IMG/VR virus record: IMGVR_UViG_3300047321_000238
Coordinates: 48,297-112,296 of that record
Length of the DNA stretch: 64,000 nucleotides
Reading direction: 5' to 3' (one strand)
Source of the DNA: a virus
The notes beneath the pieces were generated by a model that saw only the letters and a list, made by a program, of their open reading frames with translations, did not search any database and had not been told where the DNA came from. A program made the translations under genes and the position numbers. This document shows positions 7,750-26,070 of the stretch, in pieces (position 1 is the stretch's first letter; the number at the start of each line of letters is the position of its first letter).

Positions 7750-8367
7750 ATGGAAAACATCAATAAGAATTTAGACTTCATGGACTTAACAGGAAACGTA
7801 AAGGATATGAGAATTATCAATAATACACAAGTTGGTATATTCTCTGTTGTGCAAAAGCATTTAACAGAATCATATTTTCACACATCAAGAGGATATATCA
7901 AAGTTGATCCTGTTGTATCTATAATATGTGTTGAACATGCTAAAGGTAAAATGGAACTATTAGCTGGAATCAAGATGTTAGAAACAGTCCAAATGATTAA
8001 CTATTTGATTGAAAAGAATTTCACAATTGCTGAACTTCCTACAGAAGTTGCAAAGATCAGAAACTACAGAGCTATTATAAGAACTGTAGAAAATAAGTTG
8101 AAGTTCGAAGCTAAACAATTATTAGTAGCTAAAGAAGCAGAGAATAAAGAAATAGAGAATAAAGAAATAGAAACTACTGTAGTTGTTGAACCAATCAAAA
8201 AACAACTTCCTAAGATGAAGACTCTTTCTGATATACCTTCATATAGAGAAGTTGCTTTAACAGTTGAAGAAAAGAAGATAATGCAAAGCATTGTTCACAC
8301 TAAAGATATAGCATCATCTTTCTTCAACAAAAGTAAAATAATCAATATCTTTAGCAAAACTAAATGA
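7750..8367 (+). CDS. hypothetical protein, 205 aa
   Basis: Track ORF with GGTGAAAGGTGG RBS. Internal ENKEIENKEIE repeat. Confidence 0.5.
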   Translation: MENINKNLDFMDLTGNVKDMRIINNTQVGIFSVVQKHLTESYFHTSRGYIKVDPVVSIICVEHAKGKMELLAGIKMLETVQMINYLIEKNFTIAELPTEVAKIRNYRAIIRTVENKLKFEAKQLLVAKEAENKEIENKEIETTVVVEPIKKQLPKMKTLSDIPSYREVALTVEEKKIMQSIVHTKDIASSFFNKSKIINIFSKTK

Positions 8368-8900: not shown

Positions 8901-8927
8901 ATCTTTCAATGCATGGGCCTATAGTAT

Positions 8928-14010: not shown

Positions 14011-15102
14011 ATGAAAACAATTAATAACAAACAATTAGAAACAGGAAAGAAAATAGTAAATCAATTAGGAGTTAACAAAACTGCTATAGCACTAACTCAT
14101 TATAATGTAGAAAAGAACAATATTGATATCAGAATGTTTTTGTACTCAGATGAAGACATTACAATATATACAACTGGTAGATTGTTTTTAGGAACATATA
14201 AAAAGGAAGATAAAAAGTTCTCATTCGATCCTGCTACTAAACTACCTTATGTTGTAGGATGCAATAACATTAAGACTCGTAGAGAAGTTAAGGATGCTAT
14301 TAAGAAAGTATTATCTACTCATGCAGATGTATTAAAAATGAGTAATGGATACAAAAACTTAATTAATGATGTAGAGGATGTTTTACTTTATGTTATCAAG
14401 AGTGGAATTATTAAAGGCAGCTACTTACCACTTGAGGCACAACTAAAACATAATTGGATCATGAATCCAGACACAATAATTGTAGAGGGTGAGTCAGTAG
14501 CTAAACATGAAATAGCAGTAACAACAGATACTAATACAAAAACAGAAGGAGAAGTCAAAATGAATATAATGAGTGCGGCACATAAACTAAGAAAAGAAAT
14601 GGAAATAGAAGATAAAGAATATGCATCTTACAGCTATAAACTTAAAATGAAGATTGCATTAAAGTATGCATGGGATACATGTCATATTAATAAAGTAGTA
14701 GCTATTAAAGAAGTAGCTATTACTGTAGATAAAGTGATAAACATAAATACACGTAGACCAGAGCCAACAGCTAAGGATGAAGTTATGGCAAGTAAGCTTG
14801 AACCATTAACAGCTAAGTGCGACAATGGCAAGAAAAGAATCAAAGGAGAAACTTATATTGTATCCACACCAGGACACGTTAATATAGAAGATCACATTGG
14901 AACAGTGATTAAGGCTTTTGATATATCCACTCAAATATTAGGCAGAAAAACATTAGCTGAGTTAAATGTGAAATTCACTGAAAGAAAGTTTGCAGAGAGC
15001 AGATTTTACAGAGAGAATGCACATAAGTTAATTATTGTTACTAGCCATAAAGATGAATATGAACAAATTAAAAACCCAAGAGGATTTATACTTGTTAAAT
15101 AG
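14011..15102 (+). CDS. hypothetical protein, 363 aa
   Basis: Track ORF 14002. The ATG at 14011 follows AAAGGA, so it is the likelier start. Confidence 0.55.
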   Translation: MKTINNKQLETGKKIVNQLGVNKTAIALTHYNVEKNNIDIRMFLYSDEDITIYTTGRLFLGTYKKEDKKFSFDPATKLPYVVGCNNIKTRREVKDAIKKVLSTHADVLKMSNGYKNLINDVEDVLLYVIKSGIIKGSYLPLEAQLKHNWIMNPDTIIVEGESVAKHEIAVTTDTNTKTEGEVKMNIMSAAHKLRKEMEIEDKEYASYSYKLKMKIALKYAWDTCHINKVVAIKEVAITVDKVININTRRPEPTAKDEVMASKLEPLTAKCDNGKKRIKGETYIVSTPGHVNIEDHIGTVIKAFDISTQILGRKTLAELNVKFTERKFAESRFYRENAHKLIIVTSHKDEYEQIKNPRGFILVK

Positions 15103-15104
15103 TA

Positions 15105-15190
15105 TTGCCCCCTTCGGGGATAGATCAGTGCCATTCCTTCGGATAAATATAAATAAGCTCCCTCCGCTCGCAGTCCCTTCGGGAACAAAT
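15105..15190 (+). ncRNA. three C-rich UUCG-loop mini-hairpins (CC-UUCG-GG x3) in non-coding DNA
   Basis: cccccttcgggg, tccttcgga and tcccttcggga fall within 80 nt in a 28% GC genome. No long ORF fits here. Confidence 0.25.
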
Positions 15191-15213
15191 AAACTAACTT
15201 CGTTAGTAGAAAT

Positions 15214-15240
15214 AAGCTTCGCAGACTAATCGTGCGGATT
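15214..15240 (+). promoter_or_regulatory. conserved intergenic motif copy a (AAGCTTCGCAGACTAATCGTGCGGATT)
   Basis: Member of a 5-copy motif family with core TAATCATGCG flanked by CGCA/TGCG inverted repeats. Confidence 0.35.
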
Positions 15241-15296
15241 CTATGAGAGCTATATTGAAACTAAGTTCTTATTGAACTATTTAGTTCTCATAATAA

Positions 15297-15336
15297 ATTC
15301 GCTACACTCATAGTCTTAGTCATGCGTGTTATCTGA
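15297..15336 (+). promoter_or_regulatory. conserved intergenic motif copy b (degenerate)
   Basis: CGCTACACTCATAGTCTTAGTCATGCGTGTTATCTGAG. Confidence 0.3.
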
Positions 15337-15374
15337 GATTATCCTTAATCCCAAATCTCATCTTATCCCAATAA

Positions 15375-15415
15375 ACTCACTACGTTCGTAGTTTTAATCA
15401 TGCGGATATCTTGAG
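15375..15415 (+). promoter_or_regulatory. conserved intergenic motif copy c
   Basis: CACTACGTTCGTAGTTTTAATCATGCGGATATCTTGAG. Confidence 0.35.
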
Positions 15416-15580
15416 ACATTTATATGCTTACTCATAGTTATAAACTTACTTACGAGTGACATTATAAATTCAATTAGCTATTAATTAGCTACTACATACA
15501 TACAACAAGGGGGAAATAATAGGAGACTTGCGTTTAATCCATTTCTCAGGTTAAATCTATATGCTCTGTATGTATAAAAT

Positions 15581-15620
15581 AAGCTACGCAGTTTAATCAT
15601 GCGTATTATTCGTGTAACTC
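15581..15620 (+). promoter_or_regulatory. conserved intergenic motif copy d
   Basis: AAGCTACGCAGTTTAATCATGCGTATTATTCGTGTAACTC. About 90% identical to copy e at 19029. Lies 265 bp upstream of gene 15885. Confidence 0.4.
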
Positions 15621-15884
15621 TAATGCTGAAAATAGAGTGTAGACTTAGCAGGTTCTTCTATTGCTTGCTATATGTTGAACGTATAAATGGAATCCTTATA
15701 TATTATTTATGTCTGTAATAATATAAGAAGTTAGCCCAAGACATGTTGTATATATATGAGAGTGCACGCTTATGTATATATTCCTAATTAAATTATTAAA
15801 TATGTATACATCCCTACTTACGAGTGAATGTATATATATAAGAATGATTTAAGCGAAAACGAAAAAATCAAAATTTGAAAGGAA

Positions 15885-16445
15885 ATGATTAAAATGGAAA
15901 AGAGAATATTTTTAGCAACAAAGAAAGAACACACAGTAGGAGTAGTGTTTAATGTAACAGAGAATAAATGTAACAGAATTCCTACAATCGTATATGAACA
16001 CGCTGGACAAATGAATGGCTTCAGTGACACAAGACTTAGTGCAATGAGTGCATTAATAAAAGTAATTGAAGAAAATAATAGTACTGAACTTACAAATGTA
16101 GTACCAGTATTTGTTAATGAAGCATTAGCAAAGTTTATAACTGATGAAACATATAAGTTCTGGATTAAGACTGGTGCAAAAAGTACTGGTGAAGTAATTA
16201 GTGAAAATGAAATGACAATACTAAAGAAGTTCGTAGAAGTTTGGAAAGAAAAAGGAGATGACTTTGTAATCAGAGATATATTTACTTGTCGTATTAATGA
16301 TAAAGTAAAAGCTGACCCTGCAAAGATATCTAAATTCAAACCATACAGCAGACAAAATGACGCATACTGCAGATACTGTTGGGACGAAATTGCTAAACTA
16401 TATAATGAAACAGTTGAAGCATCTATAGCATCAGTTGCAGTTTAA
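15885..16445 (+). CDS. hypothetical protein, 186 aa
   Basis: Track ORF with AAAGGAAATGA RBS-like sequence. C-terminal CRYCWDE. Confidence 0.55.
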   Translation: MIKMEKRIFLATKKEHTVGVVFNVTENKCNRIPTIVYEHAGQMNGFSDTRLSAMSALIKVIEENNSTELTNVVPVFVNEALAKFITDETYKFWIKTGAKSTGEVISENEMTILKKFVEVWKEKGDDFVIRDIFTCRINDKVKADPAKISKFKPYSRQNDAYCRYCWDEIAKLYNETVEASIASVAV

Positions 16446-16547
16446 ATAAATAGATATATGAGATTGATTACTTATCGTAGTCTTTCTCATATTTTTTATG
16501 TTATTTATGTGAAAATAATAAAACAATAAGAGGAGAGAATAAATAAA

Positions 16548-16742
16548 ATGAAAATTAATCAATCAAGAAAGTCAACACATTCAATCATGGCTCATCAAAG
16601 TTTCGAAGGAGTATTACTAATTAAAGATGGTATCAAAATGTATATACCTAAAGAATGGATTACTCAAAAAGGTAAGATAAAGAAGTATGCATTAAAAGCA
16701 TTTGATAAGTTACAAAAGGAAGAACTAAGAAAGGCAATTTAA
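16548..16742 (+). CDS. hypothetical protein, 64 aa
   Basis: Track ORF with AGAGGAGAG RBS. Confidence 0.45.
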   Translation: MKINQSRKSTHSIMAHQSFEGVLLIKDGIKMYIPKEWITQKGKIKKYALKAFDKLQKEELRKAI

Positions 16743-16906
16743 ATTATGTTCAGAATAAAATATGTAGTAAGTGGTTTGGTTAAAGAACAATTATATGAAG
16801 ACACATTCTATGCAGTCAGTTTAAGACAAGCATGGTATTACTTTGGTAAGAAGTACGGCTTCAATATTAGGGACTTTAAGAGACTGAATAGTGGGGGAAT
16901 AGCATC

Positions 16907-17389
16907 ATGAAGAAACTTAATGTGTTCATAGATGGAGCATGTAAAGATGTAAAGAACAAAGAAAAAGCAATTGGTGGTTGGGGATACATAATCACTGATG
17001 AATATTTTAATGTTATCAAACAAGATAATGGCAAAATAAGAGAAGGCATCCAAGATAGTAATCGTGCAGAACTTGAAGGACTGTATCAAGCATTACTTAA
17101 GATGAAGACGTTTAAAGGAAATAATAAGTTCCATATCTATACTGATTGTGAAAGCATAGCAGATAGTTTAAATGGATATTCAGAACGTAGAGCCAATAGA
17201 GATTATTGGGATAATATAGAACCTATATGTAAAAGGTTAGCAGGACACTTTAGAATATCTCACATCGTAAGTCATCAAGTAAATGATAACGATGATAAAT
17301 TTATTGAGTATAATAATAAAGTAGACAAGCTAGCAAGAATTGGAGCAAATAGTCTAACTAAAGCACCAGTAACAAACATAGCAATATAA
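16907..17389 (+). CDS. rnh: ribonuclease H (RNase HI-like)
   Basis: VFIDGAC...IGGWGYII...SNRAELEGLYQAL...IYTDCESIA...DYW match the RNase H catalytic D-E-D-D layout. Confidence 0.75.
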   Translation: MKKLNVFIDGACKDVKNKEKAIGGWGYIITDEYFNVIKQDNGKIREGIQDSNRAELEGLYQALLKMKTFKGNNKFHIYTDCESIADSLNGYSERRANRDYWDNIEPICKRLAGHFRISHIVSHQVNDNDDKFIEYNNKVDKLARIGANSLTKAPVTNIAI

Positions 17390-17418
17390 AAATTTATGAG
17401 ATGAAAGAGGTAATCATT

Positions 17419-17724
17419 ATGAAACTAGGATTTAAATTAGGAAATATAGAATATAACGAAATCAAATTAAGCAATGTAGAATTAAACGTACAATTCTCAG
17501 CAGAAGAATTAGTAGCAGAATATGATTTATTAAAAAGAATAGCTAAAGAACTTCCAGAGATATGTACAGATTTAGCTAATGGAGCAGTAGCATTTGCAGA
17601 AATAGATAAAGCATTTACTAAGTATACAACTGCAGTAGTAGCAGAAGATTCAACAGAAGAAACAAAAACAACTGCAATGGATCTAGTTAAGTCAGCTATT
17701 AATAAAATCAATCAAGCAGTATAA
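17419..17724 (+). CDS. hypothetical protein, 101 aa
   Basis: Track ORF 17401. The ATG at 17419 follows AAAGAGG, so it is the likelier start. Confidence 0.5.
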   Translation: MKLGFKLGNIEYNEIKLSNVELNVQFSAEELVAEYDLLKRIAKELPEICTDLANGAVAFAEIDKAFTKYTTAVVAEDSTEETKTTAMDLVKSAINKINQAV

Positions 17725-17754
17725 TTAAAACAATAAGAAGGAAGTGTAATTAAT

Positions 17755-18579
17755 ATGTCAAAAATAGATATAGATATGAATTCAACAGTAAAAATAAACG
17801 GTGGAAAGTCTTTAAATATGGCAGAGTTTGCAGATAAGTTTGGAGTAGATTTAGCTAATCCTCAATTAGTAGTATCAACAGCTAATATATTAGAGAAACA
17901 AGGCAAGTTAATAGTAGTTGAAACTAAATCTAAAGAAGAACAAATCGTAGACCAAGCAATGGGACAAGAAGTATTCCAAAGTGTTGTAGAAAATTTAGAT
18001 AATGAAGAACAAGCTTATAAAGAACAACTAAGAGAAGCTAAGAAAGCAGAATCAGATGTATTAAAAATAACATTAGCATTTATAACAACATTAGATGCAA
18101 CAAAGTTTAATATGTGGTTAACTAGCTTAGGAGTAACTGAAGTATCTCAAATAATAAAGAATGGTTGTATTAAACTATTAATAGAAGATATAACTCCGCA
18201 AGAATATACTAAGATATCAGCTAAGTATAAAGCAGAGAAAGCTATTAATGCAACAGTTAATACAACAAGTAAAGTAATGAATGGAACTACTAATGCTGTA
18301 AACTATGGTTTAAGTGAAGTAGTCGCACCTGTAGCTAAAATAGCAGGAGAAGCTGGTATGAATTTAGGTAAAGGATTATTCCATACTCTAATTAAAACAG
18401 GAGCAGGTTTAATCAATAGTGGAGCTAAAGCAGTTACAGATACTAAAATAGCTTTAATGACAGATCCTGAATGTTTAAGAGCAACTAGTCAATTAATCGA
18501 TGCAAAGAATAATATAACTAGAGGCGTTAATAAACAAATGAATAATAGAGGATTTGGATCAGGAATCGAAATACTATAA
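17755..18579 (+). CDS. hypothetical protein, 274 aa, Gly/Ala-rich C-terminal third
   Basis: Track ORF with AGAAGGAAG RBS. Confidence 0.55.
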   Translation: MSKIDIDMNSTVKINGGKSLNMAEFADKFGVDLANPQLVVSTANILEKQGKLIVVETKSKEEQIVDQAMGQEVFQSVVENLDNEEQAYKEQLREAKKAESDVLKITLAFITTLDATKFNMWLTSLGVTEVSQIIKNGCIKLLIEDITPQEYTKISAKYKAEKAINATVNTTSKVMNGTTNAVNYGLSEVVAPVAKIAGEAGMNLGKGLFHTLIKTGAGLINSGAKAVTDTKIALMTDPECLRATSQLIDAKNNITRGVNKQMNNRGFGSGIEIL

Positions 18580-18726
18580 TAGATAGGAGTTGTTGTAATG
18601 GGACAATTAATAGCTAAAGTACTATTTAATCAGAAGGTGATGAGCAGTATTGTTCCGCCTTCTCTACTTAGTAATTTAGGAAACATAATAACAAAAGCAG
18701 TATTAAAATAATAGGAGTGATATATA

Positions 18727-18963
18727 ATGTTAGAACATCAACCAATCTTGAGAGCATTAATAGAACAAGGATATAGTAGCAAGATGTTAGGTGCAGTTAT
18801 TAATGAGAAGACTCAAAGAGGAACTGCATTAATCAAACTAGACTCTATAGAAAAACCATTTAATATATACTGGAATAAACATAAATCACAATGGCAAGAC
18901 GTAAAACCAGCAGAAGAAGTATCACCTGCAATAGTAGAAAGATACTACGCATCAGCAATATAA
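18727..18963 (+). CDS. hypothetical protein, 78 aa
   Basis: Track ORF with AGGAGTGA RBS. Confidence 0.45.
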   Translation: MLEHQPILRALIEQGYSSKMLGAVINEKTQRGTALIKLDSIEKPFNIYWNKHKSQWQDVKPAEEVSPAIVERYYASAI

Positions 18964-19028
18964 GATTAAAATAGCTATTGGTAATCTACTTAATCTAATA
19001 TATAAATAATAAAATCCTATATATAAAT

Positions 19029-19065
19029 AAGCTTCGCAGTTTTAATCATGCGTATTATTTGTATA
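19029..19065 (+). promoter_or_regulatory. conserved intergenic motif copy e
   Basis: AAGCTTCGCAGTTTTAATCATGCGTATTATTTGTATA, immediately after gene 18727..18963. Confidence 0.4.
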
Positions 19066-19511
19066 TAGGTTGGACCCTTAATCCATGAAAAGACGATTGG
19101 AGCATCTACGTATGTTGGGTATCGCAAAGTTTTCATTAATCCATCCCGTTCCTTATAGTATTATGCAGGATTTAGAATTCATTCTTGCATTCCTACTATA
19201 GGGAATACCCCTAAAAAGACTCAATCTTGCAAGAAAAAGAAAACCAACTTTCAGAATTACTATTATTGTGGAATAGATTATAATATATGCAAATATATTT
19301 TTAAGCTATCTTAACACAATTATGGTTAATTTTTTTCAGAGTTGGACACTAGTGTAATATATATAACACCAATTAACAGCTAACGCAGTTATGGAAATAA
19401 CACTTTGATATAGCTTAAAGTATATTTGCTGTTAATACACAATTCGTACTTACGAGTGCCGTAGATGCATATGCGACATAAAGTTAAGATGGATTTGTGC
19501 TTCCGAGTGCG

Positions 19512-19693
19512 AGCGTTAGCGAGCACGTATAATTAAATAGCGTTAGCGTCAATTATATAATAGCGTTAGCGTCAAAATTAAATAAAGCGTTAGCGTAGAT
19601 TTATAAATAGATATAATCTTCTATAGTATACCCATACTATTATGAAGTATATCGTCCTACAATTCCATTCAGTGACAGTTATAGCGTTAGCGT
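19512..19693 (+). repeat. iteron-like array: 5 direct copies of AGCGTTAGCG(T/A) spaced 13-26 bp apart, with a more distant fifth copy
   Basis: Copies at 19512, 19539, 19562, 19586 and 19683, embedded in AT-rich DNA inside a 1.1-kb ORF-free region (18964..20055). Confidence 0.5.
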
Positions 19694-20055
19694 TTAATAA
19701 CAAGCGTAGAATCGATTGTATCATCTATTAAGAGTAGCCATGTGTATACATACTACTAAACTTTAATAGATGCAACGTTGAACACGTAGTGCGAAACACA
19801 ATAAAATTATAATAATTTCTCTATACCTACCTAGCAGAATGTAAGTGATGTGGTAGTAGAGGATTAGGAGTCATATCTCCGTTTTAAAGAAATGGCACTC
19901 GTAGACCTGAACCAAGACGGTTTTGGGACGTAATCGGTGCTTTCACGTTATAATGGATATAAGCGTAGTGAGTAGTCTAAAAACGAACGGATTACTATTA
20001 CAGTAGTATATATACTTATATACACACATGGAATAAAAATAAAGGAGATTATAAT

Positions 20056-20286
20056 ATGCCTAATTATAATAGAATAAAACAAGAATTAATTAATAAAAGA
20101 ATTGAAGAAAGATATGATGGAGTAGATATGTTAACATCACGTCTTACTAATGGAGATATAGCTATTAAATGTAATGATATAGATAATAAGTGTAACCATC
20201 CTAATGGTTGTTGTATATTAAGTTTACAAGAATTTCAAGAATGGAATTGTAAATGTGCATATCAAAATAAGTATTACTTTAGGTAA
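20056..20286 (+). CDS. small Cys-rich protein, 76 aa
   Basis: Track ORF with AAAGGAG RBS. Contains CNHPNGCC and CKC cysteine clusters. Confidence 0.5.
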   Translation: MPNYNRIKQELINKRIEERYDGVDMLTSRLTNGDIAIKCNDIDNKCNHPNGCCILSLQEFQEWNCKCAYQNKYYFR

Positions 20287-20303: not shown

Positions 20304-20636
20304 ATGGAAGTATTAAAGTATATTAATGATACGTTAGTATCATATACATTAGCTGAACTATATGATAATAGAATAGGAATATCTGTAAGTAACGTAGAAG
20401 AGTTTATAGACATAATCGATAAATTAGATGCAACAGGTTTAGTGTATATGCCTACCGATGTAAAACGAGATAAGGTAGCATTGTACAATAGAGGTACAAG
20501 TAAAAATAGTTGTATATTAATAGAAAGAAGACCTGACCTAGGTAAATGTGAATATATATTAAGGTATTATTCAGAAGACTATGTAACTATGTATGCTGGC
20601 ACTATAAAGAAGTATAGTGAGGTGACATTAGTATAA
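20304..20636 (+). CDS. MELLKYIN-leader family small protein (MEVLKYIND)
   Basis: Conserved N-terminus. AAAGGA RBS. Tandem with the following family members. Confidence 0.65.
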   Translation: MEVLKYINDTLVSYTLAELYDNRIGISVSNVEEFIDIIDKLDATGLVYMPTDVKRDKVALYNRGTSKNSCILIERRPDLGKCEYILRYYSEDYVTMYAGTIKKYSEVTLV

Positions 20637-20956
20637 TGGAGTTGTTAAAGCATATTAATGATATGGCAAATACGTATACTATAAGTAAGCTGTTAAATAC
20701 AAACGCTATAGTACAGTGTGATAGTAAAGAAGAGTTTATGCAGTTAATATATAAGATAAACTGTACATCGTATCTACATACAACCCTTAGTGGTAGTACA
20801 TGGGATATTTATAATAACCAGGATAGATATAATGGAAGTATGGCAATATACTTTAACAGTAGACATCTAGAGTTTTGTTACGTAGATTATTATAAAACAT
20901 ATAGACGTAAGAACCCTAAGTATAAGTATAGTGAAGTAAATATAGTAACTATATAG
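20636..20956 (+). CDS. MELLKYIN-leader family small protein (MELLKHIND)
   Basis: Conserved N-terminus. TAATG overlap with the upstream gene. Confidence 0.65.
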   Translation: MELLKHINDMANTYTISKLLNTNAIVQCDSKEEFMQLIYKINCTSYLHTTLSGSTWDIYNNQDRYNGSMAIYFNSRHLEFCYVDYYKTYRRKNPKYKYSEVNIVTI

Positions 20957-20965
20957 AGTATGCAG

Positions 20966-20996
20966 AGTTTTTCTTCTGCACGCGAACATATGTTTA
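20966..20996 (+). promoter_or_regulatory. palindrome-containing intergenic element copy 1 (GTTTTTCTTCTGCACGCGAACATATGTTTAT)
   Basis: Contains the perfect palindrome AAACATATGTTT. Repeats at 23149 and 23498. Confidence 0.4.
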
Positions 20997-21023
20997 TTAT
21001 ATGAAAGGAGATTAAGCAAGTCT

Positions 21024-21371
21024 ATGAGTATAGAGTTATTAGATTATATAAATAAGAATAGTAAAAAGTCTTATACTATACAACAGATGATAGATGATAA
21101 GATAGCAATTCAAGTATGTAGTAGAGAAGAGTTGCAAAATCTTATAGATATAAGAAGTAGTCATGGTTGTATTGGGTGTACAGTAGAATCATGGGATACG
21201 TATGTAATAAAATATAACAAAAAGAGATATAATGGTCGGATGTGTTTAGCATTTCAAAGACCAGGATTTCTTGATTTCTGTGATACAGGATATTATCTAA
21301 ACCAAGGATATACTATAGTGCCTTATACAAGTCTAGTTATAATAGATAGTGATAAGGTGGTGTTAATATAA
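21024..21371 (+). CDS. MELLKYIN-leader family small protein (MSIELLDYINK)
   Basis: Family N-terminus shifted by 2 aa. C-terminal Y-L-N-Q-G-Y-T-I motif shared with other members. Confidence 0.6.
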   Translation: MSIELLDYINKNSKKSYTIQQMIDDKIAIQVCSREELQNLIDIRSSHGCIGCTVESWDTYVIKYNKKRYNGRMCLAFQRPGFLDFCDTGYYLNQGYTIVPYTSLVIIDSDKVVLI

Positions 21372-21688
21372 TGGAAGTATTAAGTCATATTAATAATATA
21401 CAAAGGTTTAGTATGTCAGACTTTATAGATAAAGGATATGTAATAAAGGTATGTCATAGAGCTGGACTAGAAGCTATAGTAGAGTATTTAGATAATCATG
21501 GTGTAGAAGTTAACGATGATATACGTGGAGCTGATGATAGAAGATGTGAATACTTATGTTTAAGACTAGGAGGATGGACAGATAAGAGTGGTAACATAAC
21601 AGGTTATTGTGCATGGCAAGCAAACTATGAACACTATAAGAGTAGAGGATGTACTATGTACGATTATGATGAGGTGGTGTTAGTATAA
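21371..21688 (+). CDS. MELLKYIN-leader family small protein (MEVLSHINN)
   Basis: Conserved N-terminus. TAATG overlap with the upstream gene. Confidence 0.65.
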   Translation: MEVLSHINNIQRFSMSDFIDKGYVIKVCHRAGLEAIVEYLDNHGVEVNDDIRGADDRRCEYLCLRLGGWTDKSGNITGYCAWQANYEHYKSRGCTMYDYDEVVLV

Positions 21689-21689
21689 T

Positions 21690-22022
21690 ATGGAGTTATT
21701 AAAAGAAGTAAATGAATTTAATAAGTATAGAATACGAGATATAATACGTAATAGCATGGATATATTAATACATACACCTAAGGAAGAAGACTTAATTATA
21801 TTATATAACAAGTTAATTGAATTAGGATATATAATAAGTGATCACATGTTGCATATATATAGTTCGTATAAAGAAGAGACATGTATAAGATTCTATAAGT
21901 ATACTAGTCAAAGTAGTGTAGCAAATGAATTAGGAATGAGTTATGCTGATAAACCATGGTATATCGAGAATGAAAAACAAATGAAGATAATAAACATGGG
22001 GGACATAGTATGGAAGTATTAA
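21690..22022 (+). CDS. MELLKYIN-leader family small protein (MELLKEVNE)
   Basis: Conserved N-terminus. Confidence 0.6.
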   Translation: MELLKEVNEFNKYRIRDIIRNSMDILIHTPKEEDLIILYNKLIELGYIISDHMLHIYSSYKEETCIRFYKYTSQSSVANELGMSYADKPWYIENEKQMKIINMGDIVWKY

Positions 22023-22324
22023 GATATATTAATGATGTAGTATATGGTATGTATACTATAGAAGAATTAATAAATAAGAAGATAGCAGTACATGTACCTA
22101 CAAAAGAAAAATTTAATAATATGCAAGATATGCTTATATTATTATATGGCAATAAAATAAAAACATTATCTTATGATAAAATAGGTAGGTATGCAAAGTT
22201 AATGTGTATTAACGTAGAGAGTAGTACAGGACCATATCAATATGACATGGTTATAAGTTATTGCGATAAACAATGGTATCTGGATAATGGTTATACTGTT
22301 ATAAGTATGGATAGTATAAGATGA
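22010..22324 (+). CDS. MELLKYIN-leader family small protein (MEVLRYIND), CDKQWYLDNGY C-terminus
   Basis: Conserved N- and C-terminal motifs. Confidence 0.65.
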   Translation: MEVLRYINDVVYGMYTIEELINKKIAVHVPTKEKFNNMQDMLILLYGNKIKTLSYDKIGRYAKLMCINVESSTGPYQYDMVISYCDKQWYLDNGYTVISMDSIR

Positions 22325-22512
22325 GTAAAGAATTATTAAGTTATATAATAGTAATGTTTATTACGGGTTTCTTAATAGGAATAATGGGAAACCTAATGGG
22401 CTCACCAAGTAAAAATAATATATTTATAGATGCTATATTATTTGGAATATTCATGATATTTTATCCATTTTATATTATTATATATGAAATAAGAAACAAT
22501 AGAAAGAAGTGA
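22321..22512 (+). CDS. small membrane protein with related N-terminus (MSKELLSYI), 63 aa
   Basis: Two predicted TM helices. ATGA overlap with the upstream gene. Confidence 0.5.
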   Translation: MSKELLSYIIVMFITGFLIGIMGNLMGSPSKNNIFIDAILFGIFMIFYPFYIIIYEIRNNRKK

Positions 22513-22519
22513 AAATATC

Positions 22520-22831
22520 ATGGAGATATTAAGTTATATAAATGATATAGCCTTTAACACGTATACTATAAAACAGTTAATAGGTAATAAGATAGCAGTG
22601 CATGTACCCACGCTTAAAGAATTCAAAGATATGCAAGAGATAGTTAAAGCACACAATAAAGATGTATATATAATGGATGATAGTATATATAATTGTATGA
22701 AAGAGGAGACATGTCTTAATATAGAAAATTGGAGCGGAGATTGTATATGTGATATACAAATAGAATATTGCGATAAACAATGGTATATAGATAATGGTTA
22801 TAAGATTATAAGTATGGAGGATATAAGATGA
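22520..22831 (+). CDS. MELLKYIN-leader family small protein (MEILSYIND), CDKQWYIDNGY C-terminus
   Basis: Conserved N- and C-terminal motifs. Confidence 0.65.
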   Translation: MEILSYINDIAFNTYTIKQLIGNKIAVHVPTLKEFKDMQEIVKAHNKDVYIMDDSIYNCMKEETCLNIENWSGDCICDIQIEYCDKQWYIDNGYKIISMEDIR

Positions 22832-23142
22832 GTGTAGAACTATTAAATTATATAAACAAAGAAATGTTTAAGATTATAATAACAGTAGATGAACTAGTTA
22901 ATAATGGAGTAGTTATACATGTAAATAATAGAGAAGAACAGGAAGAGTTTTTCACCGCAGTATGTAATGTGGATATACATGTACCTGCTGATACTAGAAT
23001 ACATTCATATAAAACACATGGAGATAAGCTGTTACACTTAATACAAAATCATAATGGTTTATATAGAGTAATGTATGGCACTAAGATGTCATTAGGTAAG
23101 TATAGAGTATTAGAGTATAAAGATATAAGTATAGTTAAGTAA
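22828..23142 (+). CDS. MELLKYIN-leader family small protein (MSVELLNYINK)
   Basis: Family N-terminus shifted by 2 aa. ATGA overlap with the upstream gene. Confidence 0.6.
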   Translation: MSVELLNYINKEMFKIIITVDELVNNGVVIHVNNREEQEEFFTAVCNVDIHVPADTRIHSYKTHGDKLLHLIQNHNGLYRVMYGTKMSLGKYRVLEYKDISIVK

Positions 23143-23148
23143 ACAACG

Positions 23149-23170
23149 GTTTTTTCTTTGCACGCGTAAT
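23149..23170 (+). promoter_or_regulatory. intergenic element copy 2 (GTTTTTTCTTTGCACGCGTAAT)
   Basis: Shares TTTTTCTTTGCACGCG with copies 1 and 3. The palindrome half is missing. Confidence 0.35.
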
Positions 23171-23187
23171 AAGAAGGAGTGAACGTA

Positions 23188-23487
23188 GTGATTGAGTTAT
23201 TAAAGTATATTAACAATGACTTCGTAAAAGAAGAAACTGTTGAAGCTATTAATAAAAGAAATAAGTTATTCAACGAACATGTATTAACATTAAGAAAAGA
23301 TATAGAAGAACTTAATGATAGAATAGAACTAGATAATAAAAGAAAAAGTAAAGCATTATTTATTATAGTATCTTCTACTATAGTTAATCTTATAATACAA
23401 TTAATATCTATAAGTCTTTATATTAAAGTATCATCAGCTATAGTATATGTATTGCTATTACAATTAGTTATATGGAAGAAAGATTAA
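23188..23487 (+). CDS. MELLKYIN-leader family protein with membrane C-terminus (V/MIELLKYINND)
   Basis: GTG start 8 nt after AAGGAG. The track ORF starts 9 nt earlier, inside the RBS. C-terminal hydrophobic helices. Confidence 0.55.
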   Translation: MIELLKYINNDFVKEETVEAINKRNKLFNEHVLTLRKDIEELNDRIELDNKRKSKALFIIVSSTIVNLIIQLISISLYIKVSSAIVYVLLLQLVIWKKD

Positions 23488-23497
23488 GTAGAAAAAG

Positions 23498-23528
23498 GTT
23501 TTTCTTTGCACGCAAACATATGTTTATA
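23498..23528 (+). promoter_or_regulatory. palindrome-containing intergenic element copy 3 (GGTTTTTCTTTGCACGCAAACATATGTTTAT)
   Basis: Near-identical to copy 1 and includes AAACATATGTTT. Confidence 0.4.
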
Positions 23529-23548
23529 TTAAGAAGGAGTGATAAGTC

Positions 23549-24016
23549 ATGGAAGAATTGTTAGAATTATTGGGAGATAGAAGAATACCTAAGTATGAGG
23601 AGACGACAGCATTTAATAACATACCTATTACAGATGAGTATGTAAAACATCAAATTATAAGTGAAGATAAAAAAGAAGTGAAGGCAATATTAAAAAGAAT
23701 AAGGACTAGCGGATTTCATTGCAATAGTACGAACAATTTAATAACTGTCATATTAGAGAACAAAGCTCTCTTAGATAAAATTAGTTTAGTAAAGGATGGT
23801 AGTTATTTAAATACAAAGATACTTTTAAAACGTAATAGCAAACCATATATACTTATATATAGTGGAATTAAAACTGTATTAGGTGATAAAGTATTCGATT
23901 TGAAATTTGATTATAGTGAAATAGAAATGTTAAATCTTATTACTGATAGAAGTGAAAGAGTATATATTAATATAAGAGATTATATAGATAGAGATAGATA
24001 TAGATGGAACTATTAA
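23549..24016 (+). CDS. hypothetical protein, 155 aa (N-terminus MEELLELL)
   Basis: Track ORF with AAGGAGTGA RBS. Loosely related leader. Confidence 0.55.
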   Translation: MEELLELLGDRRIPKYEETTAFNNIPITDEYVKHQIISEDKKEVKAILKRIRTSGFHCNSTNNLITVILENKALLDKISLVKDGSYLNTKILLKRNSKPYILIYSGIKTVLGDKVFDLKFDYSEIEMLNLITDRSERVYINIRDYIDRDRYRWNY

Positions 24017-24333
24017 ATTATATAAACAACGTGTTAAATAAGTATAACTTTGATTATCTATATGATAATAAAGTAGCAATAAGAGTACCAACAGCAGACG
24101 ATTATTATATATTAGAGAAGATGATAAATGATTATTGTAAGAGAAAATATATATCAGTAAGATTATTACCATTCTTAAGGAATAGTAATTATATAAAAAT
24201 ACATGCTACATGTATTAATATAGGACCAGAAACTATAACAAATCATTATGATATAAATATAAACTATTGTGATCAAGAATATTATATACAACAAGGATAT
24301 ACTATAGTTAATATATCTGACTGTTGTATATAG
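24004..24333 (+). CDS. MELLKYIN-leader family small protein (MELLNYINN), CDQEYYIQQGY C-terminus
   Basis: Conserved N- and C-terminal motifs. Confidence 0.65.
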   Translation: MELLNYINNVLNKYNFDYLYDNKVAIRVPTADDYYILEKMINDYCKRKYISVRLLPFLRNSNYIKIHATCINIGPETITNHYDININYCDQEYYIQQGYTIVNISDCCI

Positions 24334-24345
24334 GAGAGTAGTATA

Positions 24346-24558
24346 ATGGAACTATTAAAGTATATAAACAATTATAAACACAAGATGATGTGTGGCAGTA
24401 CTAGTAGACAAAAAAGAGGATGTGACAATATCGATATAAAAGCATGTTGTATAACATGTAATAAGAGAGACGATTGTTACTTTGAATGTGCAGGCTCACA
24501 GACAGAAAGACATTATCGAAATATAGATGAGCCATGTGATAAAGGAGTAGTACTATGA
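24346..24558 (+). CDS. MELLKYIN-leader family, short Cys-rich form (10 Cys in 70 aa)
   Basis: MELLKYINN leader followed by a CxxxxxCC...C..C...C Cys-rich body. Confidence 0.6.
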   Translation: MELLKYINNYKHKMMCGSTSRQKRGCDNIDIKACCITCNKRDDCYFECAGSQTERHYRNIDEPCDKGVVL

Positions 24559-24686
24559 TGGAATTATTACAAGCAGTTAATAAAATGAATATGTATACTT
24601 TAACAGATGTAGTCTATGCATTTACAAGAGGAAAGAAAATAGCAATAGAAATAAAAGATATTATAATAAAGAAGGAGTATTTATGA
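24555..24686 (+). CDS. MELLKYIN-leader family mini-protein, 43 aa (MMELLQAVNK)
   Basis: Not in track (under 60 aa). ATGA overlaps on both sides. Related leader. Confidence 0.4.
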   Translation: MMELLQAVNKMNMYTLTDVVYAFTRGKKIAIEIKDIIIKKEYL

Positions 24687-25051
24687 CCGAACTATTAAGT
24701 ATGATTAATAATTATTCTATAGGATATAGTTTAAACGATTTATATAATAAACATATAATAATTAGAATATTAAACAAAAAAGATTTATGTGATTTCATTG
24801 AAATTTCTAATTATAATAATACAGTTAGAACCTTTAATGCAGAAAAAGTATGGAATAAATATGTAGAACCACTTAATAATTGTAATAAAATTATATGCAT
24901 AGAATTAGAAGTAAATGACGAAGAAGATAATTATGATTTTATGTTTACATTTGGAAGTATAAGTTATTATACTGATCCAATACTACATCGTGAAAATAAA
25001 TATGAAATAGTAGATTATCATAAAGATATAATAAATAATTGGGAGATATAA
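24683..25051 (+). CDS. MELLKYIN-leader family small protein (MTELLSMINN)
   Basis: Conserved N-terminus. Confidence 0.6.
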   Translation: MTELLSMINNYSIGYSLNDLYNKHIIIRILNKKDLCDFIEISNYNNTVRTFNAEKVWNKYVEPLNNCNKIICIELEVNDEEDNYDFMFTFGSISYYTDPILHRENKYEIVDYHKDIINNWEI

Positions 25052-25054
25052 TTT

Positions 25055-25402
25055 ATGATTGAATTATTAAGTTTTGTTAATGATGAAACAAACATAAAAG
25101 AAACAGTATATGTAGACGACATAGCTGGAAACAAAATAACATTAGAATTTTCTACTAAAGAAAGTTATATGATATTTTGTAAAGCTATGGACGAAACATA
25201 TGATACTTATACTGAATATACAAAGAATGATGCATGGGAAGACTATATAGAAGATGAAGAGCAGAACAAAGATTTTAAAGGTAAGCTTGGTTTGAATCTA
25301 CATGATAATAAAAAAGGTTGGAACTATTGTGAAATTGATTGGTATAAAGATAATGGCTATAAAGTATATAAGTACGATGATATTATATTAAAGTACAATT
25401 AA
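25055..25402 (+). CDS. MELLKYIN-leader family small protein (MIELLSFVND), CEIDWYKDNGY C-terminus
   Basis: Conserved N- and C-terminal motifs. Confidence 0.65.
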   Translation: MIELLSFVNDETNIKETVYVDDIAGNKITLEFSTKESYMIFCKAMDETYDTYTEYTKNDAWEDYIEDEEQNKDFKGKLGLNLHDNKKGWNYCEIDWYKDNGYKVYKYDDIILKYN

Positions 25403-25419
25403 AAAGGAAATGAAGAATA

Positions 25420-25746
25420 ATGAGGGAATTATTAAAACATATACAAGAGAATCAATATAAAATAGAAGATATTATAAAAGATAATGTAGCGTTGTATATT
25501 GATAATAGAAAAGATTTAGATACTATAATAGAAGTAGCAAATAGACATAATATATTTATTGGGCCATTTATAAGAACATCATTAACGGATTCATATTGTA
25601 AAAAAGGAATCTTTATAAAGATAATACACATTAAAGAAAATGATTATTATGTGAAAGGATATAAATATAGATTAGGATGGAATTTCGATGATAATGATAA
25701 ATCACTCTTAACTGTATATAGTAGAGAGGATTATATATTAGTATAA
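25420..25746 (+). CDS. MELLKYIN-leader family small protein (MRELLKHIQE)
   Basis: Conserved N-terminus. Confidence 0.6.
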   Translation: MRELLKHIQENQYKIEDIIKDNVALYIDNRKDLDTIIEVANRHNIFIGPFIRTSLTDSYCKKGIFIKIIHIKENDYYVKGYKYRLGWNFDDNDKSLLTVYSREDYILV

Positions 25747-25758
25747 GGAGAGATTAAT

Positions 25759-26070
25759 ATGGCCGAGCTATTAAAATATGTAAATGAAAATATTAAAGAC
25801 AAATATACCGTAAAGATGATTATAGACAAAAGATTAGTAGTTAATGTAAAAACTAAAGAAGCGTTTAATGATATGCAGGATAAAATATGGGATTATAATC
25901 ATAAAGTATGCTTTATAGATAATGATGTTTATTCCATACACAAATCACAAACATGCATTAAAGTAGAAAGAATAAATACATCGGAATATGATTTAAATAT
26001 AGAATTTTGTGACAAACAATGGTATATAGATGAAGGCTATCAAATAATTGATATAGGAAAAGTAATATAA
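25759..26070 (+). CDS. MELLKYIN-leader family small protein (MAELLKYVNE), CDKQWYIDEGY C-terminus
   Basis: Conserved N- and C-terminal motifs. Confidence 0.65.
   Translation: MAELLKYVNENIKDKYTVKMIIDKRLVVNVKTKEAFNDMQDKIWDYNHKVCFIDNDVYSIHKSQTCIKVERINTSEYDLNIEFCDKQWYIDEGYQIIDIGKVI

What the first reader, a model, noticed from the sequence alone, without database searches (positions are those of the whole stretch)
18964..20055. 1.1-kb ORF-free region with an AGCGTTAGCGT iteron array: candidate replication origin or master regulatory locus
This is the longest non-coding stretch in the window. Five direct repeats of AGCGTTAGCG(T/A) lie at 19512, 19539, 19562, 19586 and 19683. They are spaced 13-26 bp apart in AT-rich context, a classic iteron architecture. 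The region also contains one copy of the conserved intergenic motif (19029) and one copy of TACTTACGAGTG (19447; other copies at 15449 and 15816). It directly precedes the MELLKYIN array.
Basis: seen in the sequence. Interest (0 to 1): 0.55.

Follow-up and report, generated by a model that had tools for sequence, protein, structure and literature searches.

The report
Strand-specific mini-hairpin array, not classical iterons
The five "iterons" in this gene-free kilobase of an uncultivated ~250-kb phage are copies of GCGTTAGC, an unusually stable single-strand mini-hairpin known from primase-dependent phage origins, and they sit in a block of conserved folded structure, so the region is real and interesting but is not a classical iteron origin.

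Summary
AGCGTTAGCG occurs five times, all on the + strand (19512, 19539, 19562, 19586, 19683), in the longest ORF-free stretch of the window (18964-20055), far above chance.

The window comes from a 247.9-kb uncultivated AT-rich phage. About 20 related loci keep the same gene order and a 1.0-1.9 kb gene-free gap.

The repeats do not look like double-strand protein-binding iterons.
- Copy 1 caps a hairpin whose stem covaries in every relative: stem, tandem G·A, GC, GTTA loop, GC, tandem G·A, stem.
- The free copies vary from 0 to 4 per relative.
- The core, GCGTTAGC, GCGTCAGC or GCGAAGC, matches the published "mini-hairpin DNA" consensus GCGNNAGC/GCGNAGC. d(GCGTTAGC) melts at 69.5 °C and caps hairpin I of the primase-dependent origins of microviruses St-1 and α3.
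- The 16-mer GCGAGCGTYAGCGAGC is enriched in non-coding DNA of many unrelated viral contigs compared with a reversed-sequence control.

The same gap also holds well-supported folded elements on the sense strand, including a new three-way-junction motif at 19064-19135.

Best reading, about 0.4: strand-specific single-strand initiation signals in a transcribed, structured zone. Main rival, about 0.35: the same hairpins act in the RNA. Neither skew, DnaA boxes nor an initiator gene supports a classical origin.

The parts
18964..20055 (.). ORF-free region. It is conserved in position, after the 274-aa, 38-aa and ~78-aa genes and before the array of ~100-aa paralogues, in about 20 related loci.
19016..19069 (+). 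P0: 15-bp hairpin directly 5' of GGTTGG, preceded by AAAATCC.
   Evidence: I6, 93% complementary; an 8-15 bp hairpin at the same place in 14 of 14 loci, with unrelated stem sequences.
19031..19037 (-). GCGAAGC, the GCGNAGC mini-hairpin consensus, read on the minus strand inside the 32-nt 'intergenic motif' (19028-19059). Sister copies lie at 15216 and 15583.
19064..19135 (+). Block A: three-way junction (P1 ACCC/GGGT, P2 TCCA/TGGA with conserved loop TGAAAAGACGAT, P3 variable hairpin) and a conserved ATCGCA tail that may pair with the CGAT of the loop.
   Evidence: 12 of 12 pairs show compensatory change, 92% of cells paired, 0 of 500 shuffles reach this; model R1 scores 86.5 bits, with one copy per locus. 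G·U 8 against A·C 1; also present in unrelated contigs L056 and L057.
19148..19206 (+). Hairpin B: about 25 bp. The outer stem TTCCTTATAGT/ACTATAGGGAA covaries. The apical stem is ATGCAGGA/TCTTGCAT.
   Evidence: (I24)
19225..19234 (.). 10-bp palindrome TCTTGCAAGA, conserved in relatives. It could be an RNA element or an operator.
19289..19429 (+). Long-range helix, GCAAATATATTTTTAAGCTATC (19289-19314) with GATATAGCTTAAAGTATATTTGC (19405-19429). It encloses the TTAACAGC/GCTGTTAA hairpin and an inverted GCGTTAGC copy at 19379-19386 (minus strand).
   Evidence: (I15, I19). G·U pairs on + become C·A on -.
19447..19509 (+). Two TAC(T)TACGAGTG-type motifs (19447-19458 and 19498-19509), with a covarying hairpin between them (about 19455-19478). 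The second motif abuts the capped hairpin.
19507..19526 (+). Capped hairpin holding repeat copy 1: GTGC-GA-GC-GTTA-GC-GA-GCAC. The 16-mer GCGAGCGTTAGCGAGC is 19509-19524.
   Evidence: 20 hairpins, 6 of 7 stem pairs with changes on both sides, 0 of 500 shuffles reach this; present in every relative; the 16-mer is enriched in viral non-coding DNA against a control.
19539..19549 (+). Free mini-hairpin unit 2, A-GCGTTAGC-GT.
19562..19572 (+). Free mini-hairpin unit 3.
19586..19596 (+). Free mini-hairpin unit 4. It is the only copy followed by a GATAT element, 16 nt after CGTTAG.
19683..19693 (+). Free mini-hairpin unit 5. L041, L043 and L044 carry a second capped-hairpin-plus-free-copy pair about 240-270 nt downstream of the first hairpin.
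19778..19835 (+). Conserved sigma-70/sigma-A-like promoter block: TTG(A/C)AA-type -35 in relatives, an ATAAT(A)AT -10, then conserved TACCTAG.
   Evidence: Inferred from consensus only.
19856..19876 (+). Short covarying hairpin (GGAG/CTCC here; GAAG/CTTC and GAAA/TTTC in relatives) followed by the invariant CGTTTTA. Possibly a weak terminator or attenuator.
   Evidence: alignment columns 2090-2110. Inferred.
19985..20055 (+). Conserved block GGATTA(C/T)TATTAC..TAG ... TATATACACA, then the ribosome-binding site and the start of the first downstream gene. The motif is unique in the window.

Best explanation
The repeats are strand-specific single-strand mini-hairpin units, not sites read on duplex DNA.

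Each unit is GC-G(T)NA-GC: two G-C pairs closed by a sheared G·A pair. In copy 1 the unit is lengthened by a tandem G·A step and a covarying Watson-Crick stem. The sequence matches the 'extraordinarily stable mini-hairpin DNA' consensus GCGNNAGC/GCGNAGC.

Proposed mechanism: when the sense (+) strand of this zone becomes single-stranded, the units fold into hairpins that bind SSB poorly. That strand could be exposed as the strand displaced by rightward transcription (an R-loop), or as the lagging-strand template of a rightward fork. The hairpins would then mark entry or priming sites for a primase or primosome. This is the role proposed for hairpin I of G4, St-1 and α3, and for the ssi signals of RSF1010. 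On this view the locus is a replication-initiation or priming zone inside a transcribed, highly structured leader.

Shown here: the motif identity, its strand specificity, hairpin covariation, conservation across the phage family, and enrichment of the capped hairpin in non-coding DNA of other viruses.

Inferred, not shown: that the strand is ever single-stranded as DNA, that a primase recognises the hairpins, and that replication starts here.
For: 1. Core identity. GCGTTAGC is one of the measured mini-hairpin DNAs (Tm 69.5 °C), whereas r(GCGAAAGC) melts at 39 °C. The same 8-mer caps hairpin I of the primase-dependent origins of St-1 and α3. Related caps occur in G4 ori, RSF1010 ssiA and N4 hairpin promoters, and mini-hairpins bind SSB poorly (PMC13037366).
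2. All variants in the family stay within that DNA rule. The loops are GTTA, GTCA or GAA, and none of the 52 is a GNRA loop, the stable class in RNA.
3. Of the 52 copies, the pair next to the GC stem is A·G in 46 and a Watson-Crick pair in the other 6.
4. The stem of copy 1 covaries: 6 of 7 pairs, 29 cells with changes on both sides, 0 of 500 shuffles reach this.
5. Free copies have only two G-C pairs. They would be autonomous structures as DNA but marginal as RNA (review Tm table).
6. Strand polarity. Across 12 loci (11 relatives plus the window), this gap holds 45 cores on + and 4 on -. The upstream gene-free gap holds 12 on - and 2 on +, and 7 of the 12 have at least 3 flanking Watson-Crick pairs. 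The same cap is therefore used on either strand, which argues for a DNA-level entity.
7. The 16-mer GCGAGCGTYAGCGAGC gives at least 120 stretches (93 distinct contexts) in IMG/VR, against 55 stretches (39 contexts) for the reversed control. Contigs of GC 0.45 or less: 25 against 1. Flanking arms of 4 bp or more: 9 against 0. Outside ORFs of 100 aa or more: 46 of 93 against 3 of 39.
Against: - No independent sign of an origin. There is no skew inflection, AT-rich unwinding element or DnaA box here, and no initiator, primase or helicase gene among the ten neighbours scanned.
- Known mini-hairpin origins are in ssDNA phages and plasmids. I know of no dsDNA jumbo-phage precedent.
- The + strand is also the sense strand, so covariation cannot separate RNA from displaced DNA.
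- Neighbouring elements look like RNA. Block A recurs 25-35 nt upstream of start codons in unrelated phages.
- In CRESS-like contig L127 the capped hairpin lies on the strand complementary to the TAGTATTAC (virion) strand but is sense to Rep. That fits an RNA role better. In L114 it is on the virion strand.
- The 54 minus-strand C-GNA-G hairpins in the upstream gap are the exact complement of sense-strand C(UNCG)G RNA tetraloops, so they do not discriminate.
- Nearest-neighbour DNA folding shows no + over - advantage, but those parameters do not model mini-hairpins.
Confidence: 0.4

Rival explanations
1. RNA-level hairpin array. The whole 19016-19700 block is a multi-domain structured non-coding RNA or leader transcribed rightwards. 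The GCGUUAGC hairpins are repeated binding sites for an RNA-binding protein (an MS2-operator, boxB or sponge-like logic), or contacts within or between RNA molecules.
For: - Strong sense-strand covariation in neighbouring elements: Block A 12 of 12 pairs, P0 in 14 of 14 loci, hairpin B.
- G·U 8 against A·C 1.
- RNAalifold gives -56.3 kcal/mol for + and -40.4 for -.
- Block A sits in 5'-UTR-like positions in unrelated phages.
- A hammerhead-like element lies in the same gap in relatives.
- 52 of 55 repeat cores are on the sense strand.
- In both CRESS-like contigs the hairpin is sense to Rep.
- Tandem G·A in a C-GA-G context is also stable in RNA (established knowledge).
Against: - The loops are GUUA, GUCA or GAA and never GNRA or UNCG.
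- Free copies would have only 2 bp as RNA.
- The same cap occurs on the minus strand in the upstream gap, where no minus-strand gene exists.
- Iteron-iteron pairing is supported by flank extension only in L040, L041, L043 and L044, and it is broken by variants in L031 and L054.
- No Rfam family matches, and no transcript data are available.
Confidence: 0.35
2. N4-type hairpin promoters. The mini-hairpins extrude from supercoiled DNA and are recognised on the template strand by a phage, possibly virion, single-subunit RNA polymerase.
For: - N4 virion RNA polymerase promoters are template-strand mini-hairpins, GCGGAGC or with GAA loops (PMC13037366).
- Minus-strand GCG(A/T)AGC caps at 15216, 15583 and 19031 lie upstream of rightward genes or elements, inside a 32-nt conserved motif.
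- An unannotated 1672-aa protein is encoded just upstream.
Against: - The five + strand copies would drive leftward, antisense transcription with no genes to express.
- N4 stems are 5-7 bp with 3-nt loops, whereas most units here have 2 G-C pairs and 4-nt loops.
- The 1672-aa protein matches no RNA polymerase family in Pfam, PHROGs or NCBIfam.
Confidence: 0.08
3. Classical double-strand iterons or operators bound by a replication initiator or transcription factor.
For: - Direct repeats with a 23-24 bp period in AT-rich spacers resemble plasmid iterons.
- 11-13 nt are invariant across relatives whose flanking protein is only 42-84% identical.
- The nearby palindrome TCTTGCAAGA and related half-sites could be operators.
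Against: - Copy number is not conserved, ranging from 1 to 5, and three relatives keep only hairpin copies.
- The arms around copy 1 covary.
- Variants keep hairpin pairing rather than a fixed sequence.
- No initiator gene, DnaA boxes, unwinding element or skew signal was found.
Confidence: 0.07
4. Genome terminus, packaging (pac) site or terminal-repeat boundary.
For: Many related contigs end within 0.1-2.4 kb downstream of the gap: L030, L040, L043, L044, L047, L052.
Against: - The breaks fall just inside the first genes of the paralogue array. That is where repeated N-terminal coding sequence would break assemblies.
- L035 ends in Nextera adapter sequence.
- Four contigs of 137-259 kb run straight through the gap: L037, L041, L045, L053.
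Confidence: 0.04

Closest known systems
Mini-hairpin DNA, d(GCGNNAGC)/d(GCGNAGC) (Hirao), as found in hairpin I of the primase-dependent complementary-strand origins of microviruses G4 (GCGAAAGC) and St-1/α3 (GCGTTAGC)
   Same: The 8-mer core GCGTTAGC is identical. Family variants (GTCA, GAA) stay within the consensus. The motif is strand-specific, caps a longer Watson-Crick stem in copy 1, and lies in non-coding DNA of a phage.
   Different: The host genome is a ~250-kb dsDNA phage, not ssDNA. There are up to five copies in an array. Copy 1 carries an extra tandem G·A step (GCGAGC...GCGAGC). No priming data exist, and no CTG-type start site has been identified.
Single-strand initiation signals ssiA and ssiB of RSF1010 oriV (RepB' primase)
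   Same: Hairpins with a mini-hairpin cap (CCGAAGG) that work only as single strands. In RSF1010 they lie on opposite strands. Here the caps are minus-strand in the upstream gap and plus-strand in this gap.
   Different: RSF1010 has adjacent 20-bp iterons bound by RepC and its own primase and helicase genes. No such genes or duplex iterons were found here.
Bacteriophage N4 virion RNA polymerase hairpin promoters
   Same: This is the one precedent in a dsDNA phage. A hairpin stable on one strand only, thanks to a GNA cap, is extruded from duplex DNA.
   Different: N4 has 3-nt loops on 5-7 bp stems on the template strand. The + strand copies here would point away from all genes.
C(UUCG)G and related intergenic RNA hairpins of T4-type phages; large structured phage-associated RNAs (GOLLD, ROOL)
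   Same: Dense arrays of very stable hairpins on the sense strand between genes of a large phage. The 0.7-kb block has many covarying helices. GOLLD, ROOL and OLE are large ornate RNAs that form homo-oligomers (PMC12286853).
   Different: No match to the GOLLD or ROOL Rfam models, or to any other Rfam model, even at E up to 10. The loops are not GNRA or UNCG.
Iteron origins (lambda ori, P1 oriR, plasmid oriV, T4 oriE)
   Same: Direct repeats at a 23-24 bp period with AT-rich spacers in a non-coding region.
   Different: The conserved unit is a hairpin and copy number is not conserved. There is no initiator gene, DnaA box, unwinding element or skew signal.

Membership tests
Mini-hairpin DNA motif (GCGNNAGC / GCGNAGC) | Sequence consensus: GC stem, loop beginning with G and ending with A, GC stem | tested here: met
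   All 5 window copies are GCGTTAGC. All 52 family copies are GCGT(T/C)AGC. GCGAAGC variants occur in L046, L053 and L065. The consensus and the GCGTTAGC Tm of 69.5 °C come from PMC13037366.
Mini-hairpin DNA motif (GCGNNAGC / GCGNAGC) | Actually folds as an unusually stable hairpin in DNA (melting, gel mobility, exonuclease resistance) | not testable with these tools
   Nearest-neighbour DNA parameters do not model it. It needs UV melting of d- and r-oligonucleotides covering 19507-19526 and the free units.
Primase-dependent single-strand origin (G4/St-1/α3 ori(-), ssi signals) | The hairpin lies on a strand that is single-stranded in vivo, and primer synthesis starts next to it | not testable with these tools
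   No replication or priming data. Only the cap sequence is shared.
Primase-dependent single-strand origin (G4/St-1/α3 ori(-), ssi signals) | Function depends on strand and orientation | tested here: met
   52 of 55 cores lie on + in this gap across 15 loci. Across 12 loci, 45 on + and 4 on - here, and 2 on + and 12 on - in the upstream gap.
Iteron-type replication origin | An array of at least 3 direct repeats, conserved as an array among relatives | tested here: not met
   Copies per relative range from 1 to 5. L046, L050 and L053 keep only hairpin copies or degenerate ones.
Iteron-type replication origin | Adjacent cognate initiator (Rep) gene | tested here: not met
   No Rep, helicase or primase family among the neighbouring proteins in Pfam, PHROGs, NCBIfam or PADLOC. 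Only an RNase H was found, at 16907-17389. Most neighbours have no annotation, so this is weak negative evidence.
Iteron-type replication origin | AT-rich unwinding element, DnaA boxes and a skew inflection | tested here: not met
   The region is 32% GC against about 28% in the flanks. No DnaA box with up to 1 mismatch lies in 18964-20055. The cumulative GC-skew minimum is at about 5 kb.
Rfam RNA families (GOLLD, ROOL, hammerhead, riboswitches and others) | Covariance-model score at or above the gathering threshold | tested here: not met
   Zero hits at gathering score in 64 kb. Only two chance-level lncRNA hits at E up to 10 in 14900-20200.
Hammerhead ribozyme type III (relatives L030, L031, L035, L036 only) | CUGAUGA and GAAA cores, GUC cleavage site, three helices | tested here: inconclusive
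   The core, the site and the three helices are present by eye, and the minimum-free-energy fold is the three-way junction. There is an extra U after CUGAUGA, and Rfam reports nothing even at E up to 10. The element is absent from the window.
SPO1-type late promoter (CGTTAGA-N17-19-GATATT) | A -35-like CGTTAG with a GATAT partner at the right spacing, recurring upstream of genes | tested here: not met
   Only copy 4 has a GATAT partner, at N16. It is the single match in 64 kb. Consensus taken from PMC3601020.
Type III toxin-antitoxin antitoxin repeats (ToxI-like) | Tandem RNA repeats of about 34-36 nt next to a ToxN-type endoribonuclease gene | tested here: not met
   The period is 23-24 nt with variable copy number. 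No PADLOC hit among ten neighbours apart from one chance-level match.

The most novel reading that the evidence does not exclude
A 'G·A-zippered' mini-hairpin, GCGAGC-GTYA-GCGAGC, is a widespread and so far undescribed single-strand signal. It would be used by very different viruses, from AT-rich jumbo phages and T4-like phages to CRESS-type ssDNA viruses, spanning 28-70% GC. In this jumbo-phage family, arrays of such caps lie on opposite strands in two gene-free zones (15.1-15.9 kb on the minus strand, 19.0-19.7 kb on the plus strand). They would bracket a transcription-primed replication origin that also encodes a new three-way-junction RNA, Block A.
Probability: 0.2. Interest if true: 0.8.

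Novelty: new variant of a known kind. Interest (0 to 1): 0.6.

Why it matters
Origins and early control regions of uncultivated jumbo phages are essentially unknown.

If these hairpins are priming or entry signals, they extend a mechanism known from ssDNA phages, RSF1010 and N4 to large dsDNA phages. They would also give a simple sequence tag, GCGAGC-GTYA-GCGAGC, for finding such sites in metagenomes. If they act in RNA, they define a new repeated hairpin module.

In either case the work yields two concrete, testable motif families.
- The capped hairpin is enriched in viral non-coding DNA compared with a control.
- The Block A three-way junction has compensatory changes in all 12 pairs and also occurs in unrelated phages.

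The case also shows that short 'direct repeats' in AT-rich phage DNA can be single-strand structural units rather than protein-binding iterons.

Tried and rejected
- **Known RNA genes.** Rfam at gathering score and at E up to 10, and ARAGORN on the window and 12 loci, found nothing.
- **Known phages.** No DNA match in GenBank phages in near or distant mode. No relatives in GTDB genomes.
- **Iteron-pair scan of IMG/VR.** The matches examined were 18-nt or 6-nt coding tandem repeats in unrelated contigs, apart from L001.
- **SPO1-type late promoter.** Only one copy fits, and at the wrong spacing.
- **DnaA boxes, AT-rich element, skew.** All negative.
- **Iteron-iteron pairing.** GCGUUAGCGU is a G·U wobble palindrome, and minimum-free-energy folds do pair neighbouring copies. 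Flank extension is significant only in L040, L041, L043 and L044 and absent in the window's own clade. Variants in L031 and L054 break it while keeping the mini-hairpin. It was demoted.
- **Small ORF MKRRLE... at 19085.** Not conserved as a reading frame.
- **Contig ends as genome termini.** Better explained by the repeated paralogue array and, for L035, by adapter sequence.
- **UUCG-hairpin count in the window.** With 3 pairs required it is not above shuffles.
- **TATATACACA and GATTATWATTAC blocks.** Not general promoter motifs in the window.
- **DNA-parameter folding of + against -.** Uninformative.
- **Neighbour proteins.** Pfam, PHROGs, NCBIfam and PADLOC found no initiator, primase, toxin or RNA-binding family.
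- **Literature searches by sequence string.** Only primers or nothing.
Full report
**1. Observation**

AGCGTTAGCG occurs exactly five times, at 19512, 19539, 19562, 19586 and 19683, always on the + strand. One 1-mismatch copy lies elsewhere, at 50448. Shuffles give 0.43 matches on average, and none of 100 reaches six. Start-to-start spacing is 27, 23, 24 and 97 nt.

Region 18964-20055 has no ORF above 45 aa. It is the longest gap between ORFs of at least 70 aa in the window. There is no tRNA and no Rfam family, even at E up to 10.

**2. Source and relatives**

The window is 29% GC and has no DNA match in GenBank phages. One 684-aa protein is about 60% identical to proteins of Bacillus Herelleviridae. 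The 274-aa protein at 17755-18579 is found on a 247,883-bp JGI contig and has 72 homologues.

I fetched about 20 related loci, including contigs of 249-259 kb. All keep the same gene order:
- the 274-aa gene and small genes;
- a 1.0-1.9 kb gap with no called gene;
- an array of ~100-aa paralogues.

No relatives exist in GTDB genomes.

**3. The gap is full of conserved single-strand structure on the + strand**

Alignment of 13 gaps shows many conserved blocks.

- **P0.** An 8-15 bp hairpin lies directly 5' of GGTTGG in 14 of 14 loci, with unrelated stem sequences.
- **Block A, 19064-19135.** A three-way junction in which all 12 pairs show compensatory change. 92% of cells are paired and 0 of 500 shuffles reach this. 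G·U pairs outnumber A·C pairs 8 to 1. Covariance model R1 finds one copy per locus, and it also finds a copy in L053 that was not in the seed.
- **Hairpin B, 19148-19206.** About 25 bp, with a covarying outer stem.
- **Long helix.** 19289-19314 pairs with 19405-19429.
- **Strand comparison.** The consensus fold is better on + (-56.3 kcal/mol, 67 pairs) than on - (-40.4 kcal/mol, 56 pairs).

A degenerate pattern scan then found Block A in two unrelated viral contigs of higher GC, L056 and L057, scoring 47 and 52 bits with new compensatory pairs. In each it follows a GC-rich hairpin and sits 25-35 nt upstream of a start codon. Block A is therefore an independent, previously unmodelled motif, and it looks like RNA.

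**4. What the 'iterons' are**

Every relative has at least one copy. 52 of 55 cores are on the + strand, and all lie inside the gap.

The first copy is always the cap of a hairpin: stem, GA, GC, GT(T/C)A, GC, GA, stem. Its stem covaries as GTGC/GCAC, GAGC/GCTC, GGGC/GCCC, AGCC/GGCT, ATGC/GCAT and others. Six of 7 pairs change on both sides, and 0 of 500 shuffles reach this.

Free copies number 0 to 4. Variant copies keep the hairpin rather than the sequence. The A·G pair next to the GC stem is replaced only by U-A, A-U or G-C (6 of 6 departures).

The conserved entity is therefore a small hairpin, not a duplex binding site. The array itself is not conserved.

**5. Identity with a known motif**

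The core GCGTTAGC, GCGTCAGC or GCGAAGC matches the 'mini-hairpin DNA' consensus GCGNNAGC/GCGNAGC of Kimoto and Hirao (PMC13037366). That review reports the following:
- d(GCGTTAGC) melts at 69.5 °C, whereas r(GCGAAAGC) melts at 39 °C.
- G4 hairpin I carries GCGAAAGC, and St-1 and α3 carry GCGTTAGC.
- RSF1010 ssiA has CCGAAGG.
- N4 virion RNA polymerase promoters are GCGGAGC or GAA-loop hairpins.
- Mini-hairpins bind SSB poorly.

None of the 52 loops in the family is GNRA. The free units have only two G-C pairs, so they are autonomous structures as DNA but marginal as RNA.

**6. Polarity**

In the window, GCGN(N)AGC is concentrated in this gap, with 5 hits on + and 1 on -.

Across 12 loci:
- This gap has 45 cores on + and 4 on -.
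- The upstream gene-free gap (window 15103-15884) has 2 on + and 12 on -. Seven of those 12 have at least 3 flanking Watson-Crick pairs, with loops GTTA, GTAA, GTGA and GAA.

The same cap on opposite strands argues for a DNA-level entity.

There is a caveat. The 54 minus-strand C-GNA-G hairpins of the upstream gap are the exact complement of sense-strand C(UNCG)G RNA tetraloops, of the kind known from T4 (my knowledge). They do not discriminate between the two readings.

**7. Distribution beyond the family**

The reversed-sequence control hits 55 stretches in 39 contexts.

| Measure | Real 16-mer | Control |
|---|---|---|
| Contigs with GC 0.45 or less | 25 | 1 |
| Flanking arms of 4 bp or more | 9 | 0 |
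| Outside ORFs of 100 aa or more | 46 of 93 | 3 of 39 |

Many copies cap longer hairpins, sometimes with further G·A steps. Contexts include:
- the region downstream of SegE-like GIY-YIG homing endonuclease genes (L059, L075);
- two CRESS-like circular contigs.

In L127 the hairpin is on the strand complementary to TAGTATTAC. In L114 it is on the nonanucleotide strand. In both it is sense to Rep. Block A does not co-occur with these hairpins.

**8. Origin tests**

- Cumulative GC skew has its minimum at about 5 kb, where transcription changes strand. It rises monotonically through 19-20 kb.
- The gap is not AT-richer than its flanks.
- No DnaA box lies in it.
- Ten neighbouring proteins match no initiator, primase, helicase, toxin or RNA-binding family. 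Only an RNase H, at 16907-17389, lies nearby.
- Contig ends cluster just inside the paralogue array and, for L035, in adapter sequence. They reflect assembly breaks, not genome termini.

**9. Verdict**

The repeats are real, strongly conserved and non-random. They are strand-specific mini-hairpin units, not classical iterons.

I favour, at about 0.4, a DNA-level role as single-strand initiation or priming signals. They would be exposed on the displaced or lagging + strand of a transcribed, structured zone. This reading rests on four points:
- the exact match to the measured DNA motif;
- its link to phage initiation sites;
- the loop spectrum;
- the use of the cap on either strand.

The main rival, at about 0.35, is that the hairpins act in the sense RNA, next to elements that clearly look like RNA. 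Covariation cannot separate the two because the + strand is also the sense strand.

Classical iterons, N4-type promoters and a packaging site are minor options.

The 3' 270 nt of the gap (about 19780-20055) carries conserved promoter-like blocks and a short hairpin followed by CGTTTTA. I infer that these drive or attenuate the downstream array.

Noticed in passing
window 15103-15884: A second gene-free stretch shares motifs with the finding: four copies of the 'intergenic motif', two exact TACTTACGAGTG copies, and several C-TTCG-G type hairpins. In 12 loci (11 relatives plus the window), this gap holds 54 minus-strand C-GN(N)A-G-capped hairpins and none on the plus strand. On the plus strand these read as C(UNCG)G RNA tetraloops. 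It also holds minus-strand GCGTTAGC, GCGTAAGC and GCGTGAGC hairpins.
   Followed up: partly
L030 about 8925-8985; L031 about 8955-9015; also L035 and L036: A hammerhead-like element lies at the start of the gene-free gap in some relatives. It has a GUC site, a stem I hairpin, CUGAUGA followed by an extra U, a stem II GACUA/UAGUC, GAAAC, and a 6-7 bp stem III. The minimum-free-energy fold is the three-way junction, but Rfam does not report it, and it is absent from the window.
   Followed up: partly
L056 9824-9894; L057 3695-3765: The Block A three-way-junction motif occurs in two unrelated viral contigs of higher GC. In each it is preceded by AAAATC and a GC-rich hairpin and followed 25-35 nt later by a start codon. 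It is a candidate new cis-acting RNA motif, or possibly a ribozyme. It has conserved junction and loop bases and a possible CGAT/ATCG pseudoknot with one compensatory case, in L046.
   Followed up: partly
L127 1130-1145; L114 3168-3183: The 16-mer capped hairpin occurs in two small circular CRESS-like genomes encoding Rep and an S3 helicase. In L114 the stem continues through several further G·A steps.
   Followed up: partly
window 15452, 15820, 19452 (+), 19896 (-); relatives: ACGAGTG(A/C)C recurs on the sense strand in both gene-free gaps, and 35-65 nt upstream of several start codons in relatives. It may be a promoter or processing signal. The copy at 19498-19509 abuts the capped hairpin.
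   Followed up: partly
L037 about 7290-7800; L038 about 1530-2060: The two closest relatives carry about 500 nt of extra sequence at the 5' end of the gap. It contains a tRNA-like T-arm (GGTTCAAATCC) and an acceptor-like stem, but ARAGORN calls no tRNA.
   Followed up: no
window 20304-26070 and related loci: A tandem array of about 15 paralogous ~105-aa genes (MEVLKYIN/MELLKHIN...) has no Pfam or PADLOC match. Many related contigs break just inside this array, which fits repeat-induced assembly breaks.
   Followed up: partly
window 8928-13946: A 1672-aa protein has no Pfam or PHROGs match and only a chance-level NCBIfam hit. It is conserved upstream in relatives and is worth a fold search for a polymerase or primase.
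   Followed up: no
L001 5050-5081: An unrelated 41-kb contig of 35% GC has two 22-nt-spaced copies of TATTAAAGCGTTAGCGTTTCTA, just upstream of a divergent gene start.
   Followed up: no
protein P0020 (homologue of window 17755-18579): One source names a 54%-identical homologue of the 274-aa protein 'ribosomal protein S13'. Pfam gives no such match for the window protein.
   Followed up: no
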